64,000 nt of DNA from Pelagomonas calceolata (Eukaryota). The stretch is taken from assembly GCA_918797485.1 (NCBI GenBank), contig CAKKNE010000002.1, positions 1,426,001 to 1,490,000 of the forward strand. The letters run 5' to 3'. Position 1 is the stretch's first letter. Each line of letters starts with the position of its first letter. A model generated the notes under the pieces. That model saw only the letters and a program-made list of their open reading frames with translations, was not told the origin of the DNA and ran no database searches. This document shows, one piece after another, positions 23,372 to 30,314 of this stretch. The position numbers and the translations under genes were made by a program.

Positions 23372-24831
23372 ATGCTAGGCTGGCTCCTGCTGTTGGCGGC
23401 AGCAGCCGACGCGCGCCCCAAGCCAAACACGAAGCCCGACACCTTATTTAAGGGACCGGGAGTCACGATTCTAGATCGGCAGGGCGTCCAAGCCATCCGA
23501 AACGATAAAAGTGGTGCAACTGGATGGGTCGTCGCATTCTACGCGCCCTGGTGCGGCCACTGCCGCCACTACGCGCCCGAATTTAAAAAGTTCGGCGCGG
23601 CCTTGCAGGGACACCCGAACATCAAGGCGGGCGCCGTGTCGTGCACGGCCGAGCGCAAGGCCTGCGACGAGAACGCCGTCAAGGGCTACCCCACCGTCAA
23701 GAGCTTCGGGGTGCTGGGCCACGATATTGTACTGAAAAGGCACCAGTCGAAGGACCTGCTGGAGCTCGTGCGCTCGAAACAGACGGACGCCGCGTTCGCG
23801 GGCCTCGTGAAACCGAGGTGGAGTGAAGAACCCCCCAAGGTGATCTCGGCACCGACGCCCCAGTCGCCCTACGACAAGATCATGGCCACGGCTTTACCTC
23901 CCCCAAAGCTCCGCGCGGCGCCATCAACTATCGACGCGGCGGCGTCGCTGCGGTTCCTGCTGGAGAACGTGTTCGTCGGTGATCGAACGCTCACGGAGGA
24001 GAAGAGCGTCGCGCTGCGGGGTGTGTTAGCCGCCGTGGCGCGAGCGTCGCCCGAGATTACCGTGGCAAGCGCCATATCAATATGTCTGCAGCAGCAGCCG
24101 AGCCCGACTTCTACAGATTGGGCGTCTTGGCTGGAGGAAGACGGCGTCGTAACGTGCCACGATCAAACGACGCGCGTCCAGCGCAAGCGCTGGACCAGTA
24201 GGTGCGACCCCGAGGGGAAAGGAACAGACGGGACGGCGTACACGTGCGGGTTGTGGGGCCTCTTCCATGGATTGGTGCAATCACTAAATGCGCGCGACGG
24301 TCTGAGTGCGGTCCGGGCGTCCATGCACTTCTTCGGCTGCGAGGAATGCAGAGACCACTTCCTCGAGATGTACGATTCTTGTAGATACGGCCGCTGCGAC
24401 GCCGACGCGGACGCGTCATTGTGGCTCTGGCGGGCGCACAACGTCGTGAACGCGCGCACGCACGGCCACGTTGAGGATGGCTATATTACGGCCAACACGC
24501 CGGACAACGCGGCGGCGTTTTGGGCCTTCCCGTCCGTGGAGCAGTGCGCCGACTGCCGCGACGGCAAGAAATGGGATTTGGACGGCGTGCGCGCTTTTTT
24601 AAAGCGCGAGTACGGCAATGGTTCGTCGTCGGCGTCCGGCGTCTCTGCGCGCGGACGCGCCCTCATAATGTTTCTCGCAGGCCGGCGCCGCTCGCCGCGG
24701 CGCCGCCGCCCGGCTCCTCGCGCCTACACGGCCTTCTGATCGTTTGTCTGGTTGGTGGCTGCGTGATTTGTCTCTGTCTGCTCCGGCGGCGGCCTTTGAC
24801 GCGCCGCAGCAGGTACAGGTTGCCCCACTAG
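23372..24831 (+). CDS. QSOX: Quiescin-sulfhydryl oxidase (thioredoxin plus Erv domains), with a probable intron near 24634-24680 leading to a C-terminal TM exon
   Basis: Signal peptide, FYAPWCGHC, YTCGLWGLFH, FFGCEECRDHF, LWLWRAHNVVNAR and FPSVEQCADC. Hydrophobic tail LLIVCLVGGCVICLCLL lies in the next frame after ...TCGCAG. Confidence 0.85.
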
Positions 24832-24894
24832 TGTGTAAGTTGTTGACGTTGTGTCCTTGTGTTGTTGACAGGGTACATCTTACACGAAGGGGGT

Positions 24895-25197
24895 TCAGGC
24901 GCAGCAGCTGGATTTGCAGAGCCCTTTCAGCCGCGGCCAGCGCTCCCGGGCCCTGGCGCGCGCGCGGGGGCTCTTGGGTTCGCCGTTCTGCGCGTGGAAG
25001 GTGTCGCCGGAGTCCTCGGGCGTCTTGTAGTTCGACCAGTATTCGCGGTCGTAGAAGATGCTAGAACGGTCGCGGGGCGGCGCCGTCGGGAAGAGGTCGG
25101 CGAGGAGGTCTTCCTCCGCGGGCGCCGGCGCTTTCGTTTGCTCTTTGGTGGCTTTGGGGGAGTCTGGCGGCGTCATCTCGAGTTCGCTCGTCTCCAT
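24895..25197 (-). CDS. Small hypothetical protein
   Basis: 100-aa ATG-initiated ORF with host-like codon usage and the promoter motif upstream at 25425. Confidence 0.45.
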   Translation of the reverse strand: METSELEMTPPDSPKATKEQTKAPAPAEEDLLADLFPTAPPRDRSSIFYDREYWSNYKTPEDSGDTFHAQNGEPKSPRARARARERWPRLKGLCKSSCCA

Positions 25198-25424
25198 GTG
25201 CGCGCTCCTGAGGGTGGCGCGAGCTCGTAGCGCTCGCTACGTCCTCGGGACCGGCAATTGCAGGCCACCAGCCTCAGAGCCTTATTCCTTGTTAAGCGTC
25301 AGTTTCCGGGTCGGGAGTTGCGTCGGGCTCGAGCCCGGGTTGGAATCAGACCGTCGCTCCCTCCCGGAGGTCGCTTGCGCCGCGAGTCGAGAGCAAGTCA
25401 GTCCCAAAAGTGAATATTACCGAG

Positions 25425-25446
25425 CTAGCGGCATGTAAGACACTAG
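25425..25446 (+). promoter_or_regulatory. Conserved upstream motif
   Basis: CTAGCGGCATGTAAGACACTAG, 17 bp from the MULE left end. Confidence 0.65.
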
Positions 25447-25463
25447 GAAGCCAAGCCTTTGAG

Positions 25464-25530
25464 GGTACGGGCTGACTAGGGAAATTGGTGGGCTGACCAG
25501 GGAAATTGGAGCGAGGGGCTGGAAATTGGG
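25464..25530 (+). repeat. Left TIR of the MULE
   Basis: Reverse complement of 29138-29204; internal sub-repeats GGGCTGACnnGGGAAATTG. Confidence 0.95.
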
Positions 25531-25543
25531 GCTGACGCTGTCC

Positions 25544-26986
25544 ATGGACTTTTTTCGATATATATTTAGGACTCCGGAGCCTGCGCGGCAGCCCCAAATC
25601 CTGAAGGAGACGTCGCCACTGGCAGGCAGGTCCAAGGCAGAGCAGCGGGACCACCTCGACCGGATTTGCGAAGCGCGCCACGGGGAAATCAACAGCGACG
25701 AAGAAGACGAACCGCACTGGTCGGTACCACCTGGAGCTAAAGAAGTGCTGCCCGCGTTCGAGCTCGACCCGCCGTCGAAGCGATCGAAGCGCGCTGGCAC
25801 AAACTACGATTCTACAGACCACGTACCAGAAAGGACATGGATCAAGGTGAAGGGTGCCGCCATCAATGACCCGCCCGTCGCTGCGGCTCTCGATGAGCTG
25901 TTCGGCGAGGACGGCGCAGGCCACACTCCGTTGGGAAAAAAACCTAAGCCGAACCCGAAAAGAGGTATTAAGAAATACGAGTGGCGCTTCTGCAAGTTTG
26001 CCAAACTGGGCTGCCCGAAAGCGTGTCGCATCTCATTCATGGAGAACGGCGACGCCATCATCAAACCCAACAGGTGGGGCCACGAGCATCCGGAGGGCGA
26101 TGCTCGTGAAGAGCTAGCTAATCGAAAGGGCCTGCCACCGACAGCTAAACTTGCACTGAAGCCCTTCGTCGACGCAGGCCACTACAAGATGGTGGATTGC
26201 ATCGATACCTTGAAAAAAGGTGGGCATTTGGGCCCAAACGGGGCATACTACAACGAGAAGACCCAAAGGAAATTCAAAAAGATGATCAAAAACTACTTGA
26301 CGTACGCCATCGAGAAGAAACACGGCAAAGGTGGGAGGTGGTCGTCGGAGTACGGTGATTTTTTGAAGGACGTGGAGGACGACTCCAAAACTGACGAGGA
26401 GGTGGAGGCCATGGTGGCCAACAAGGACTGGGACACACCATTTACTTTTGATGCCAATATATCAGGAGCTCAGAGCAAAAACTTTTTTTGTAGTGCTAAC
26501 ATCCGCTCTCTTAGCAGAGCTATGCAACAGGCTTTGACTGGGACACCCCAGGCGTGTGGTGATGGGACAGGCCGCATCAATTTAGAAGGAAGGTCGCTTG
26601 TATTCATCGGGACCGTCGACCGTGGGCAATCCTTCCATCACATAGCAGCTTTCCTATTATCAAAGGGCGAGACGAAGGAGGAGATTCTGCGTGGCCTCAG
26701 AGCCATCTCCAAGAAGATTGATGCTGTTCACAGGGCGATGCTTCGCCTACCAGCCGGCGAGGCTCTCTACAACGCCAGCGAGCTCGGCGCAGGCTACACA
26801 TGGGCTCCGAAGACCGTGATGAACGACAACTCGGACGCGTTTTTTAGCGCCTGGACCGAGATCATTTTCGAAAGATTGAGGGAGGAGATCGTGCAGCTCA
26901 AGGCCGAGAACGCCGAACTCAGAGGCGAGCAGATGGACACCGACGAAGATGAGGAGGCCGAGGACTCGATGGAGGACGTCGCTTAG
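25544..26986 (+). CDS. MULE transposase, N-terminal half (zinc finger and first two catalytic Asp)
   Basis: WRKY/FLYWCH-like CKFAKLGCP...HEH; D1 region CGDGTGRINLEGRSLVFIGTVD...AFLLSKGETKE; D2 region PKTVMNDNSDAFFSA. It then ends in a coiled/acidic tail without CxxH or the catalytic Glu. Confidence 0.85.
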   Translation: MDFFRYIFRTPEPARQPQILKETSPLAGRSKAEQRDHLDRICEARHGEINSDEEDEPHWSVPPGAKEVLPAFELDPPSKRSKRAGTNYDSTDHVPERTWIKVKGAAINDPPVAAALDELFGEDGAGHTPLGKKPKPNPKRGIKKYEWRFCKFAKLGCPKACRISFMENGDAIIKPNRWGHEHPEGDAREELANRKGLPPTAKLALKPFVDAGHYKMVDCIDTLKKGGHLGPNGAYYNEKTQRKFKKMIKNYLTYAIEKKHGKGGRWSSEYGDFLKDVEDDSKTDEEVEAMVANKDWDTPFTFDANISGAQSKNFFCSANIRSLSRAMQQALTGTPQACGDGTGRINLEGRSLVFIGTVDRGQSFHHIAAFLLSKGETKEEILRGLRAISKKIDAVHRAMLRLPAGEALYNASELGAGYTWAPKTVMNDNSDAFFSAWTEIIFERLREEIVQLKAENAELRGEQMDTDEDEEAEDSMEDVA

Positions 26987-27860
26987 TAGATACATCCCGC
27001 TTCCCCGGGGGTTCCTACACGTCGGGGCCCCGCGTTAAGGAAGCTTTCATACCAAAACATAATTACACAAGGCCGGCGGCGCTGAGCTGCGGGTCACCTA
27101 GGACGTTCATTCAACGCCGAACCGATGACGTTCATGATGCCCGCGTCATCTATCAGACATGGAGAGACCACTGCGTCGACCTCCAGGTCGTCGACGCGAG
27201 GGAACTCGACTTGGCGCTCGTGCAATTGCTTGTGCGCGGCGGCCATCACCCGGCAACACCGCTCCGCAGCTCTTCTTCGCTAAAGGCTCGGCTGCTCGCG
27301 TTCTGGGGTTGGTGCGCTGTCAAATGGCACCGGGGCTCAACCCGCGATGCCGTCGCCGCGTCGTACTCGGCGCCCCATCTCAGGGAGTGGCAGTGGGCTG
27401 CCCACGCCGCGCGGTGGTGCGCGGCATCGCACCGGCGCTTCCGGCGCGTCCTTAAAGGACTCATGGGGCCCCCGGCGGCGCGTGGGCAGCCGGCGCGCAG
27501 CTAGGACAGCCTGGGAGATTAAGCGTGGCGATGAATTAGCCGGGCGGGTATTACGCGTCAAAATTCGGTTTTAAGGCCCCGCTAGCCGCCCTAAGCTGCG
27601 CGTCGGCTGCCCCACGCCACTGGCCTGGCCCAGAGGGCCGGATCGGCAGCCTGACGGGCCGTCTGGGCTGCCTGGGGCCAAAATCATGCCATCGTCCCAT
27701 CGCGCTCTCCCAGCGCTCCATCCGGATTCCACCGCTCCATCCGGACGCCGGTCGTTCCATCGTGCCACCGGTCCAGGAAGGACTGATGCATCGCTCGGAG
27801 GGGCCCGAGCGAAGCCTGGACGGGCCCGCCCGATCCAACCTGGTTTGTGCCAGGCACAGA

Positions 27861-27894
27861 CCAGGCACCTGGGCGGGCCCGCCCAGGTGCCTGG
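27861..27894. repeat. 34-bp perfect palindrome inside the MULE spacer
   Basis: CCAGGCACCTGGGCGGG|CCCGCCCAGGTGCCTGG. Confidence 0.9.
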
Positions 27895-27985
27895 GCGGGC
27901 CGGACCGGGGCCTAGAGGGAGCGCTCCGGAGCACCCGAGATGTCTAGTTTACGCGCTATAGGGATGTCTAGGGCCCCTGCGCCAG

Positions 27986-28037
27986 GGTTCAGGTTCAGTT
28001 CAGGTTCAGTTCAGGTTCAGTTCAGGTTCAGGTTCAG
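27986..28037. repeat. TTCAG(G) simple repeat just 3' of the ORF2 stop
   Basis: GGTTCAGGTTCAGTTCAGGTTCAGTTCAGG... Confidence 0.9.
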
Positions 28038-28045
28038 CCCCAGAA

Positions 28046-29137
28046 TCAACCAAAGGGGTGGGGAGGGGGGGCTGTAGCAGCTGGGGCCTTCGGAGGAATG
28101 CTGAAGCGCGGCTGATCAAAGGTGAGGGCCCCACCTTTCCTAGCCTTCCTCCGGCCCCCACGCTTCGTCTCTTCTCCGATGACCTTAATATCTTTTTCTT
28201 CTGGTATTTGGATCCTTCCGTGCTTCACATCCCAGGCCAGGCTGCAATCGCAAGTTTCCTTCATCTGGTAATCAATGCACGTGCAAGCGCACGAGGTCGC
28301 AGCACCGGTGCGGACAATGGAATAGAGCATACACGCACCCTTAGAGGATTTGTGAAAATCATCTAAGGATGTGATGCGGTCCATGTCTCCTGTGTATAGG
28401 AGCTCCTTATTCTGAAGGATCGGTTTGGCATGCTCCTCGATCGTGCTGCGTTCTCCACCATGCTTGGAGGCAATTGCCTTGTAGCTCTCTTTTGAGAGGA
28501 GGAAAACACACGTTGCCTTCTCCGGCGGGTGAAAGGGCGAATATGTGATTTCCAGCTCCCTCGTGGCTGTCACGTCGAATATGAACGTGTCTCGAAGTAA
28601 CTGCTGTACGCTGCGCCATTGATCCTCTTTGATGTGCTCTGCTTTAGTGAGGAACAATTGGTTTGTGAAGGGATGTTTCCTCATCCACTCCATGTGCTCC
28701 CGGTACCAAGCACGGAGCGAGAGACGGTTCCAGTCAGTGGCCTCGTCTTTGTAGGTGCGATTCCCTCTTTCATCACCATTGTTCTGGTCGGGTAGCCCTG
28801 GTTCCTGGTCCGCCGTCGTCCAATTGACGGCCCGTCCGTGCAGGTACTCCTGGGAGAACCTTTTCATGACCTTCGGTTCGCGCCGCGTCCACTCGAACTC
28901 GAACAGCTGGAACACCCTGGCCTTCCACGGCCGGAGAGTGATGCCGAGCTTCGAGATGTCATAGAGCTCTTTCTTGAACTCCTTGCGGCTCTCGTCGCTC
29001 GTGAAAAGGCTTCTATATCCTCTCTTGCCACCCTTGTCCATGAGATGCTGTACATGTACTGAACAGGTGCCGAGCAGCCACTCTACCGTGCCAGTAGGCT
29101 CCGGCGCAGTTGGGGGCTTCTTCTTGCCTCGTGCCAT
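28046..29137 (-). CDS. MULE transposase, C-terminal half (CxxH, catalytic Glu, SWIM zinc finger)
   Basis: LLGTCSVHV (CxxH), VNWT, DQNNGDERGNRTYK (TNNxxE-type), SWIM-like CTCIDYQMKETCDCSLA and basic tail KRGGRRKARKG. The ATG abuts the inner end of the right TIR. Confidence 0.82.
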   Translation of the reverse strand: MARGKKKPPTAPEPTGTVEWLLGTCSVHVQHLMDKGGKRGYRSLFTSDESRKEFKKELYDISKLGITLRPWKARVFQLFEFEWTRREPKVMKRFSQEYLHGRAVNWTTADQEPGLPDQNNGDERGNRTYKDEATDWNRLSLRAWYREHMEWMRKHPFTNQLFLTKAEHIKEDQWRSVQQLLRDTFIFDVTATRELEITYSPFHPPEKATCVFLLSKESYKAIASKHGGERSTIEEHAKPILQNKELLYTGDMDRITSLDDFHKSSKGACMLYSIVRTGAATSCACTCIDYQMKETCDCSLAWDVKHGRIQIPEEKDIKVIGEETKRGGRRKARKGGALTFDQPRFSIPPKAPAATAPPPHPFG

Positions 29138-29204
29138 CCCAATTTCCAGCCCCTCGCTCCAATTTCCCTGGTCAGCCCCGCAATTTCCCAGGTCAGCCCG
29201 TACC
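29138..29204 (-). repeat. Right TIR of the MULE
   Basis: Inverted copy of 25464-25530. Confidence 0.95.
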
Positions 29205-29416
29205 GCCTTTGAGGCTGGCTAACTCCTCGACACGCAGTGCATAGCTGCACAGCATTCGCGTGGGACGCGAGACTTACTCACAGATCAGGCTGCAAGCCGC
29301 CGAGCGAGGTCTAGGGACCCTGCTGCCGAGGCAAGCTGCACTGCTCTCCCTAGCACTTTTGGCCTGCACTCCACTCCACGCCGTCGACGCGAAATTACGA
29401 AATACCTCGTGTACAA

Positions 29417-29794
29417 ATGCGCTGGTGCCTCGCCGCAGTCCTAGCGGTCGCGCCATGCACGACGGCGCTGGCCGCGCGCCGCAAGAAGCCGCACCGGCCG
29501 CCGCGCCTCGCGCGCGGCGCGATCACGGAACGGACGACGTTCGCTGCGACGCTCGTCGAGCGGAGCGACCTCCGGCGCCGCTCCCACGCGCCGCCCGAGC
29601 GGGCCATTTGTCTCGCGGACGTGACGACAAACGGCGCCGTCGTCGCGGACCACTGCTGGCTGAGAGGTGCGGACGCTCGGTGTTTTGATCGAGTCCAGCT
29701 CGACACCCCTACCACCTTCGACGCCGAGGTCGAGACCTACCGCCGGCGGGGCCGGAGGGACTACCGCCTCGCGCGCGTCGACGCCGTAAGCTAG
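29417..29794 (+). CDS. Small hypothetical protein with signal peptide
   Basis: Leader MRWCLAAVLAVAPCTTALA followed by a compact beta-rich-looking domain (ICLADV...VADHCWL...FDAEVETY...DYRL). Confidence 0.5.
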   Translation: MRWCLAAVLAVAPCTTALAARRKKPHRPPRLARGAITERTTFAATLVERSDLRRRSHAPPERAICLADVTTNGAVVADHCWLRGADARCFDRVQLDTPTTFDAEVETYRRRGRRDYRLARVDAVS

Positions 29795-29906
29795 CTGTTT
29801 CTATCTTGTACTCATCCCGATTCAATTTGGTTGAAGCCGCGCCGCCGAGCAGCCGGCCGCCGCGTCGACGGCGTGCCCCCCACAATTAGTCAACACTCCC
29901 GAATAC

Positions 29907-30314
29907 TTACGCCTCCTCCGCGCGCAGCCGCGCGTTCGCGTTCGTCACCTTGATGTTCAGCTGCTCGGCGCGCTCGACGATGGCCTTGCGCTTCTGCGAC
30001 GAGACGGAGTGCGCGATCTCCGCCGCGTAGGTCCGGTTGTGCATCATGAGGAGCTCCAACTCGGACACGTTGTTGACGACGAACTTGTAGAAGCCCGACG
30101 GGAGGCGGTGCCGCGTCTTCTTGTCCGAACCATAACCGATCTTCGGCATGGGGATCGTGCCCTTGAAGCGCCTCCGGACGCGCGAGTCGATACCGTGGAT
30201 CTTCCGCCAGCTCGAGTTCCGGATCTTCATGAACCGGTTGCTGAAGTGGCGCGCGAACTTCTTCGTGCGCTTCTTGACGATCGTCGGCTTGTCGAGCGCC
30301 GCGACCTTCACCAT
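29907..30314 (-). CDS. RPL32: 60S ribosomal protein L32 (eL32)
   Basis: [12 protein letters not shown]...[17 protein letters not shown]...PKIGYGS...[19 protein letters not shown]. Confidence 0.97.

What the first reader, a model, noticed from the sequence alone, without database searches (positions are those of the whole stretch)
25455..29213. Mutator-like transposon whose DDE transposase is split into two convergent genes on opposite strands
Seen: 67-bp TIRs (63/67 identical), a perfect 9-bp TSD (GCCTTTGAG) and two stop-free ORFs reading inward from each TIR. ORF1 (+, 25544-26986) has a WRKY/FLYWCH-like zinc finger, D1 (GDGT, codon 26561) and D2 (VMNDNSD, codon 26825), then stops after a coiled/acidic tail. 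ORF2 (-, 29137-28046) starts with a basic NLS-like MARGKKK and continues with exactly the motifs that normally follow D2: CxxH (TCSVH), W, NNxxE (DQNNGDE, codon ~28770), SWIM and a basic tail. Established: MULE transposases carry D-D-CxxH-E-SWIM in one polypeptide. Maize MuDR has two convergent genes, but MudrB is not a transposase half. Inference: the break falls in the short loop between D2 and CxxH, nothing appears lost or duplicated, each half has its own termini, and the TSD is intact. This suggests a functional two-subunit (or trans-spliced) transposase in a recently mobile element, not debris. I know of no description of this architecture.
Basis: partly seen in the sequence, partly recalled or inferred. 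Interest (0 to 1): 0.92.

Follow-up and report, generated by a model that had tools for sequence, protein, structure and literature searches.

The report
Transposase split into two facing genes
This intact jumping gene, likely from a marine alga, encodes its DNA-cutting enzyme as two separately transcribed genes that face each other and divide the catalytic residues between them, a layout kept in a distant sister family, so the working enzyme is likely assembled from two proteins, which I did not find described for this kind of enzyme.

Summary
Confirmed. The 3.74-kb element has 67-bp TIRs, a 9-bp TSD and two open, convergent ORFs. Profile alignments tile one single-chain MULE transposase without overlap: ORF1 covers residues 141-477 (zinc finger, D, D), and the ORF2 family covers 480-796 (CxxH, W, E, SWIM). 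Stranded RNA-seq (one sample, four runs) shows two separate unspliced transcripts. Their read 5' ends pile up at the same TIR nucleotide, and no joining reads appear. A sister family (42-56% identical, different TIRs) has the same break and orientation, with dN/dS about 0.3, so this is neither a one-off inversion nor a misassembly. A structure model pairs the two halves across the catalytic sheet (ipSAE 0.75, controls 0.00); split halves tend to pass this test. Best reading: an autonomous MULE whose transposase is a two-chain enzyme (0.72). Protein production, binding and transposition are untested, and no empty site was examined. Nine literature searches found no description. The scan has noted this architecture before on other DNA (11 notes, mostly decayed copies). 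New here: an intact copy, the transcript evidence and the complex model.

The parts
25455..25463 (.). Left target-site duplication (9 bp)
   Evidence: Identical to 29205-29213
25464..25530 (+). Left TIR, 67 bp, three internal GGAAATTG-type repeats; likely holds the ORF1 promoter
   Evidence: Read 5' ends pile up at 25479-25500, strongest at 25500 = TIR nt 37
25544..26986 (+). ORF1, 480 aa: N-terminal transposase half (zinc finger, helical DNA-binding region, RNase H strands 1-4 with D340 and D428, following helix, coiled/acidic tail)
   Evidence: hhalign to single-chain relatives, prob 99.5, E 1.3e-22, covering P0051 141-477. Atlas MULE-like hits 0.90-0.94. + strand transcript
25991..26089 (+). 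C150-x6-C157...H180-x-H182 WRKY/FLYWCH-like zinc finger
   Evidence: Sequence. Conserved in family B and single-chain relatives. Best fold hit is the WRKY18 domain, weak, E 0.22
26561..26563 (+). Catalytic D1 (D340)
   Evidence: Aligned to the DGT motif of single-chain relatives
26825..26827 (+). Catalytic D2 (D428)
   Evidence: Aligned to the MNDN motif of single-chain relatives
27050..27700 (-). Third, abundant unspliced transcript in the spacer; short ORFs only (72 and 50 aa); function unknown
   Evidence: Depth up to 180. No Rfam hit. No conserved protein in family B
27550..27940 (+). Weaker divergent spacer transcript
   Evidence: Depth 7-32
27937..27966 (-). 30-nt spacer motif shared with family B (26 of 30 identical), near the ORF2 transcript 3' end
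   Evidence: Score 40, against a maximum of 35 in 200 shuffles and 31 in 56 window tiles
28046..29137 (-). ORF2, 363 aa: C-terminal transposase half (short head, RNase H strand 5, C25xxH28, helical insertion domain, W106, E123, SWIM-type finger, basic tail)
   Evidence: hhalign of the ORF2 family to single-chain relatives, prob 99.9, E 3.7e-33, covering P0051 480-796. Atlas MULE hit 0.96. - strand transcript
29054..29065 (-). CxxH motif (C25, H28)
   Evidence: Invariant in alignment A5
28769..28771 (-). Catalytic E (E123)
   Evidence: Nearly invariant in 51 homologs. Kept in 15 of 15 listed family-A ORF2 sequences
29138..29204 (-). Right TIR, 67 bp; likely holds the ORF2 promoter
   Evidence: Read 5' ends pile up at 29168 = TIR nt 37 in 2 of 4 runs
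29205..29213 (.). Right target-site duplication (9 bp)

Best explanation
This is a Mutator-like DNA transposon whose transposase is encoded as two convergent, separately transcribed genes, and whose two proteins likely assemble into one working cut-and-paste enzyme. Shown: ORF1 carries the zinc finger and both catalytic aspartates, ORF2 carries CxxH, W, the catalytic glutamate and SWIM, and each has its own mRNA starting inside its own TIR. Inferred from homology: the break lies in the loop between the helix after D2 and the last strand of the RNase H sheet. Predicted: ORF2 residues 19-25 slot in beside ORF1 strand 424-426 and the ORF2 E-helix packs on the ORF1 sheet, rebuilding the D/D/E plus CxxH site. 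Inferred origin: one ancestral inversion of the 3' half placed it behind the other TIR's inward-facing promoter, so both halves stayed expressed and the split was inherited by several families.
For: (1) The halves tile single-chain relatives with no overlap and 2 residues unaccounted for. P0051, P0028 and P0144/P0139 match ORF1 and then ORF2 in order. P0022, in the same cluster as P0144/P0139, has Pfam MULE at E 2e-10. (2) Stranded polyA RNA gives a + transcript over ORF1 and a - transcript over ORF2, with no joint in the element. 5' pile-ups at 25500 and 29168 are both TIR nt 37. (3) Family B (L002, L003, L004, L005) has different TIRs but the same orientation; L002, L003 and L004 reach ORF1's end and show the same break point. 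(4) dN/dS between A and B is 0.26-0.28 for ORF2 and 0.28-0.32 for ORF1, at dS 1.3-1.8. (5) Catalytic residues are kept: E in 15 of 15 listed family-A ORF2 sequences, and D1 plus D2 in 11 of 16 listed ORF1 sequences. (6) Signs of mobility: a second family-A site (L001) and a TIR-intact deletion derivative with a 10-bp TSD (L005). (7) Complex model: ipSAE 0.75 against best control 0.00; this mark was reached by 51 of 78 solved and 2 of 108 mismatched pairs; contact agreement at least 67%, partner pLDDT at least 75. The interface covers ORF1 338-342 and 422-429 and ORF2 19-25, 28 and 121-126. Halves of a split gene tend to pass by likeness to solved folds. (8) 12 split-type proteins fall on one side of one branch (SH-aLRT 87, quick tree).
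Against: No protein, binding or transposition data. The RNA comes from one sample, with 6-12% of each run read. ORF1 mRNA is several-fold more abundant than ORF2 mRNA. dS between A and B is near saturation. Within family B, dN/dS is 0.9-1.1 for L004 against L005, although those frames hold no stop where about 7 are expected under random change. L004 has no TSD, and the L002/L003 copy has a stop in ORF2. Five of 16 listed ORF1 sequences lack D1/D2. Single-chain relatives exist in a pelagophyte and could in principle supply transposase in trans. Branch support for a single origin is below the starred level. Gene layout was seen in DNA only for families A and B.
Confidence: 0.72

Rival explanations
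1. The split element is non-autonomous: it is moved in trans by a single-chain MULE transposase, and the two halves are kept for another role such as DNA binding, regulation or anti-silencing.
For: Single-chain relatives exist, one annotated in Aureococcus. No activity data exist. ORF1 and ORF2 mRNA levels differ.
Against: The nearest single-chain proteins found are only 22-29% identical, and a search for longer ORF2 relatives found none (weak evidence). Families A and B have unrelated TIRs, yet each keeps its own two halves with D, D, E, CxxH and W intact.
Confidence: 0.15
2. The two transcripts are joined by trans-splicing, or the two proteins are joined after translation, so the enzyme is a single chain after all.
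For: The halves are exactly complementary. Rare joints under the listing threshold would be missed.
Against: No joint or strand change within the element in 4 runs. The loose ends near 26873-26920 lie on nothing in the stretch (5 loose ends were not shown). Each half has its own start, stop and added tail or head in both families. No intein family was hit.
Confidence: 0.06
3. The two genes are a domesticated host gene pair that still sits in old transposon ends.
For: Both are steadily expressed at levels like the neighbouring host gene. Many DNA and RNA runs of the same organism hold the stretch.
Against: Intact TIRs and TSD, a 98%-identical copy at another site, family B at three different sites, and a deletion derivative. 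GC3 is 0.66 against 0.97 in one host ribosomal protein gene.
Confidence: 0.04
4. A one-off internal inversion or a misassembly has left a dead element.
For: Internal rearrangements do occur in this group: the spacer is inverted between families A and B, and L005 is internally deleted.
Against: The same layout occurs in independent assemblies and in a family about 50% diverged under purifying selection. Strand-specific RNA matches the assembled orientation.
Confidence: 0.03

Closest known systems
Single-chain MULE transposons (Muta1 of Aedes aegypti, PMC5225508; the 50 groups of Dupeyron et al., PMC6446971; passages seen) and the single-chain relatives P0051, P0028, P0144/P0139
   Same: TIRs, 8-11 bp TSD, N-terminal zinc finger, D-D-CxxH-W-E order, C-terminal SWIM. 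The W-to-E spacing is 17 here and 18 in Muta1.
   Different: Those carry the whole triad in one chain. Here D, D and CxxH, W, E are on two proteins from opposite strands.
Maize MuDR (mudrA/mudrB) and barley Abermu (PMC10401008, PMC9168764; passages seen)
   Same: Two genes in opposite orientation inside TIRs; MuDR's TIRs contain the promoters of both genes.
   Different: MURA and Abermu ORF1 hold a complete DDE domain, and the second gene is an unrelated helper. Here the second gene is the missing half of the catalytic domain.
IS256-family ISCth4 TnpA (PDB 6XG8, PMC7780238; passages seen)
   Same: RNase H fold with D175, D241, C262/H265 and E348 and a helical insertion domain. D2-to-C is 21 residues there and 22 in P0051.
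   Different: Single ORF, bacterial, copy-out/paste-in. The structural match of the ORF2 model was only Z 4.7, rank 31, which is inconclusive.
Two-protein transposons such as ProtoRAG (RAG1L/RAG2L), PIF/Harbinger and CACTA, and naturally split enzymes such as methanogen family-B DNA polymerase (recalled, not tested)
   Same: Two genes cooperate in one reaction; ProtoRAG's genes are tail-to-tail inside TIRs.
   Different: In those transposons one chain holds the entire DDE triad. None splits the RNase H sheet itself.

Membership tests
MULE / Mutator superfamily | Terminal inverted repeats | tested here: met
   67 bp, 63 of 67 identical; family B 45-47 bp
MULE / Mutator superfamily | 8-11 bp target-site duplication | tested here: met
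   9 bp here, 10 bp at L005, none at L004; range from PMC6446971
MULE / Mutator superfamily | Transposase homologous to the MULE DDE domain | tested here: met
   Indirect. No Pfam hit for either half. Both halves match single-chain proteins, of which P0022, P0026, P0101 and P0030 pass the PF10551 cut-off. Atlas hits are MULE clusters
MULE / Mutator superfamily | D-D-E triad with CxxH and W between D2 and E | tested here: met
   D340 and D428 on ORF1; C25, H28, W106 and E123 on ORF2
MULE / Mutator superfamily | RNase H fold with helical insertion domain, by structure comparison | tested here: inconclusive
   No significant Foldseek match for either half; ISCth4 TnpA at Z 4.7, rmsd 7.7, 148 aligned
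MULE / Mutator superfamily | Demonstrated excision and insertion | not testable with these tools
   Only indirect signs: second insertion site, deletion derivative, TSDs
Canonical single-chain MULE | Whole DDE domain in one polypeptide | tested here: not met
   Two ORFs on opposite strands, two transcripts, no joining reads. It is therefore not filed as a canonical MULE; it is a MULE-derived element by homology
MuDR-type two-gene elements (mudrA/mudrB, Abermu ORFR) | Complete transposase in one gene plus an unrelated convergent helper gene | tested here: not met
   ORF1 lacks CxxH and E; ORF2 is the transposase C-half
MuDR-type two-gene elements (mudrA/mudrB, Abermu ORFR) | Both genes driven from promoters in the TIRs | tested here: inconclusive
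   Read 5' ends pile up at TIR nt 37 on both sides, but these are not cap-mapped starts and no promoter assay was run

The most novel reading that the evidence does not exclude
A clade of active algal MULE transposons runs on an obligate two-chain DDE transposase. The RNase H catalytic sheet is completed in trans by a strand and the glutamate helix from a second gene, each gene is driven by its own TIR, and activity needs both mRNAs. That is a natural AND-gate that could set transposition by the ratio of the two halves and let defective copies complement or poison one another.
Probability: 0.65. Interest if true: 0.9.

Novelty: new variant of a known kind. Interest (0 to 1): 0.82.

Why it matters
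DDE transposases, integrases and RAG1 are understood to carry the catalytic triad in one chain (established knowledge; ISCth4 and Muta1 passages). A natural, inherited split through the RNase H sheet would show that this fold works as two pieces, and it would mark a tolerated cut site for engineering switchable transposases. It suggests how TIR promoters can rescue an internal inversion and turn a one-gene element into a two-gene one, which bears on the origin of MuDR-like layouts. It would also mean that annotation pipelines miss or misfile such elements, since neither half hits Pfam. This copy is intact and expressed, so it can go directly into the published yeast excision assay.

Tried and rejected
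Pfam found nothing for either half. PDB sequence search with the ORF2 alignment gave only E 1.7 or worse. Fold searches gave no significant match, and the ORF1 model was poor, mean pLDDT 52. The word-seeded search found only one family-A relative for ORF1 and no longer ORF2 relatives. Viral and prokaryotic collections held no relatives. No whole host genome was available, so copy number, empty sites and single-chain partners in this host are untested. The idea that ORF1's acidic tail and ORF2's basic head pair electrostatically fits families A and B, but it is rejected as general because heads of distant split-type ORF2s are neutral or acidic. A third protein-coding gene in the spacer is not supported: no conserved ORF and no Rfam hit. 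The careful tree did not finish; only the quick tree is cited.
Full report
Observation. The element spans 25464-29204. Its 67-nt TIRs differ at 4 positions, and the same 9 bp flank both ends. ORF1 (+25544-26986, 480 aa) and ORF2 (-29137-28046, 363 aa) are open and read inward. The ORFs are about 55% GC in a window of about 63%. The host is a GC-rich eukaryote found in marine samples.

What the ORFs are. Neither half hits Pfam. The ESM Atlas places both near MULE clusters: 0.96 for ORF2 and 0.90-0.94 for ORF1 residues 140-450. An HMMER search with the ORF2 alignment returned 107 proteins. An ORF1 profile run over the 113 proteins then held hit 12 non-self proteins at E below 0.05, best P0051 (797 aa), P0022 and P0028. 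These, with P0144 (820 aa) and the Aureococcus protein P0139, match ORF1 in their N-part and ORF2 in their C-part. P0022 passes Pfam MULE at E 2e-10; P0051 and P0028 have no Pfam hit. Profile alignment against three single-chain proteins covers P0051 141-477 with the ORF1 family (prob 99.5) and 480-796 with the ORF2 family (prob 99.9). The two genes are therefore the two halves of one transposase, with nothing duplicated and about two residues missing. [quoted passage not shown] The break falls in the loop between the helix after D2 and that last strand, so ORF2 carries one strand of the catalytic sheet plus CxxH, W and E. Muta1 needs D214, D283, E419, H307 and W401 (PMC5225508, passages), so neither half should work alone.

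Expression. Four stranded polyA runs from one sample, 6-12% of each read, were laid on 24000-29900. Strand was read against the neighbouring + strand host gene. ORF1 is transcribed on + at depth 14-141 and ORF2 on - at depth 11-35, with under 3 on the opposite strand in the ORF bodies. ORF1's RNA ends near 26980-27000 and ORF2's near 27940-28000, so they do not overlap. The only joint listed is a host intron at 24619-24680; none lies in the element and none changes strand. Loose ends at 26873-26920 (3-9 reads) lie on nothing in the stretch, and 5 further loose ends were not shown. Joining below about 3% of reads is not excluded. Read 5' ends pile up at 25500 (2 of 4 runs; 25479-25493 in 3 of 4) and at 29168 (2 of 4 runs); 25500 and 29168 are both nucleotide 37 of their TIR. 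This suggests that each TIR holds the same inward promoter, as stated for MuDR (PMC10401008, passages), but these are not cap-mapped starts. The spacer yields two more transcripts of unknown role.

Conservation of the layout. A metagenome scan gave 5 loci. L001 is a second family-A copy, 98% identical, with a different flank; it does not reach ORF1. L002, L003, L004 and L005 form family B, with ORF2 about 50% and ORF1 42-56% identical, different TIRs and the same convergent orientation. In L002, L003 and L004, ORF1 stops after the same helix with an acidic tail, and in all four ORF2 starts with a basic head before CxxH. L004 is complete with both frames open, given a 47-nt GT-AG intron, but has no TSD. 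L002 and L003 share one site and have a stop in ORF2. L005 is an internal deletion with 100% identical 45-bp TIRs and a 10-bp TSD. Nei-Gojobori dN/dS between A and B is 0.26-0.28 for ORF2 (8 pairs) and 0.32 and 0.28 for the two ORF1 exons, at dS 1.3-1.8, near saturation. Against this, L004 versus L005 gives 0.9-1.1, though with no stop where random change would give about 7 (1 of 2000 simulations had none). Among cluster members listed (15 per cluster at most, not all members), 11 of 16 family-A ORF1 sequences keep D1 and D2 and end in the same tail, 14 of 15 family-A ORF2 sequences begin with the same start, and 15 of 15 keep E. None approaches fused length. More distant ORF2-like proteins (P0009, P0012, P0013, P0014, P0021, P0025, P0032) also begin just before CxxH without a D2 helix; for these I have no DNA, and gene-calling fragments are possible. 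In a quick tree of 49 rows, chosen from 113 for having a recognisable CxxH (the remaining fragments were dropped, and labels are mine), the 12 split-type rows lie on one side of one branch (SH-aLRT 87, unrooted), near the single-chain trio. One origin is not ruled out, and it is not shown.

Structure. The ORF2 model is confident (mean pLDDT 87), but residues 1-18 are disordered and no strand forms before the first helix, as expected if the partner is needed. Folding ORF1 95-480 with ORF2 1-345 scored 0.75 against 0.00 for the best of 3 controls. This mark was reached by 51 of 78 solved and 2 of 108 mismatched pairs; contact agreement was at least 67% and partner pLDDT at least 75. Confident contacts pair ORF1 424-426 with ORF2 21-23 and include the D340, D428, H28 and E123 regions. 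Halves of a split gene tend to pass by likeness to solved folds, so this shows compatibility, not binding. Fold searches were inconclusive.

Mechanism. Shown: two genes, two mRNAs, complementary catalytic residues and a conserved layout. Predicted: strand complementation rebuilds the active site. Inferred: the two-chain unit binds the TIR repeats and cuts and pastes as other MULEs do, and the split arose when the 3' half inverted behind the other TIR's promoter. Rivals are trans-mobilisation by a single-chain enzyme (0.15), RNA or protein joining (0.06), domestication (0.04) and one-off debris (0.03).

Comparison and novelty. MuDR and Abermu have oppositely oriented second genes, but a complete DDE domain in the first (PMC9168764, passages). 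A survey of 1631 MULEs in 50 groups mentions extra ORFs, and the passages and table rows I saw mention no split triad (PMC6446971; supplements not seen, and they may bear on this). Nine searches listed no paper describing it; I read listings for these and passages of five papers. Repbase and most subscription journals were not searchable. The scan's own notes hold 11 findings of this architecture on other DNA, 8 of them shown and mostly decayed copies, one from a freshwater alga. They are unchecked AI notes and not independent support, and none shares sequence words with ORF2. Verdict: a real, inherited, expressed split of a MULE transposase, a new variant of a known kind, interest 0.82.

Noticed in passing
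window 27050-27700 (-) and 27550-27940 (+): The spacer gives two divergent polyA transcripts; the minus one is as abundant as ORF1's. It holds only short ORFs (72 and 50 aa, with stop and start overlapping at about 27246) and has no Rfam match.
   Followed up: partly
window 27348-27365 and 27937-27966; L004 2117-2134 and 2373-2402: Two short spacer motifs are shared by families A and B but lie in opposite orientation relative to the ORFs, so the spacer has been inverted in one family.
   Followed up: partly
window 9910, 25424, 42774, 50481, 58559, 63582; L004 462; L005 11695: A 23-bp host motif recurs about six times in the window. One copy ends 8 bp before this element's TSD, and related copies lie within about 70 bp of the L004 insertion, which may indicate a preference for host regulatory regions.
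   Followed up: partly
L004 2795-2749; L002 2353-2307: Family B ORF1 has a 47-nt GT-AG intron just after D1 that restores the frame; family A lacks it.
   Followed up: yes
L002 89-140, L004 529-580, L005 5457-5508: Within family B the inner TIR repeats differ strongly between copies whose interiors are 88-98% identical, while the outer 14 or so bases are nearly constant.
   Followed up: no
L004 against L005, both ORFs: dN/dS is about 1 at 12% divergence, yet there is no stop where about 7 are expected. This may reflect diversifying selection or mosaic subfamilies.
   Followed up: partly
P0167, P0171, P0173, P0174 (family A ORF1 cluster): Four of 16 listed ORF1 sequences share one alternative C-terminus before D1, suggesting a circulating frameshifted copy.
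   Followed up: no
P0009 cluster (318 members), P0012, P0013, P0021: Further ORF2-like proteins start just before CxxH without the D2 helix. P0021 is annotated in Aureococcus anophagefferens, which also has the single-chain P0139. Their DNA context was not obtained.
   Followed up: partly
window 27987-28030: A GTTCAG-type short tandem repeat lies just downstream of the ORF2 stop; it is identical in L001.
   Followed up: no
window 23372-24739 (+) and 29910-30314 (-): Host neighbours: a thioredoxin/sulfhydryl-oxidase-like gene (my reading of its motifs) with an intron near 24619-24680, and ribosomal protein L32e.
   Followed up: no
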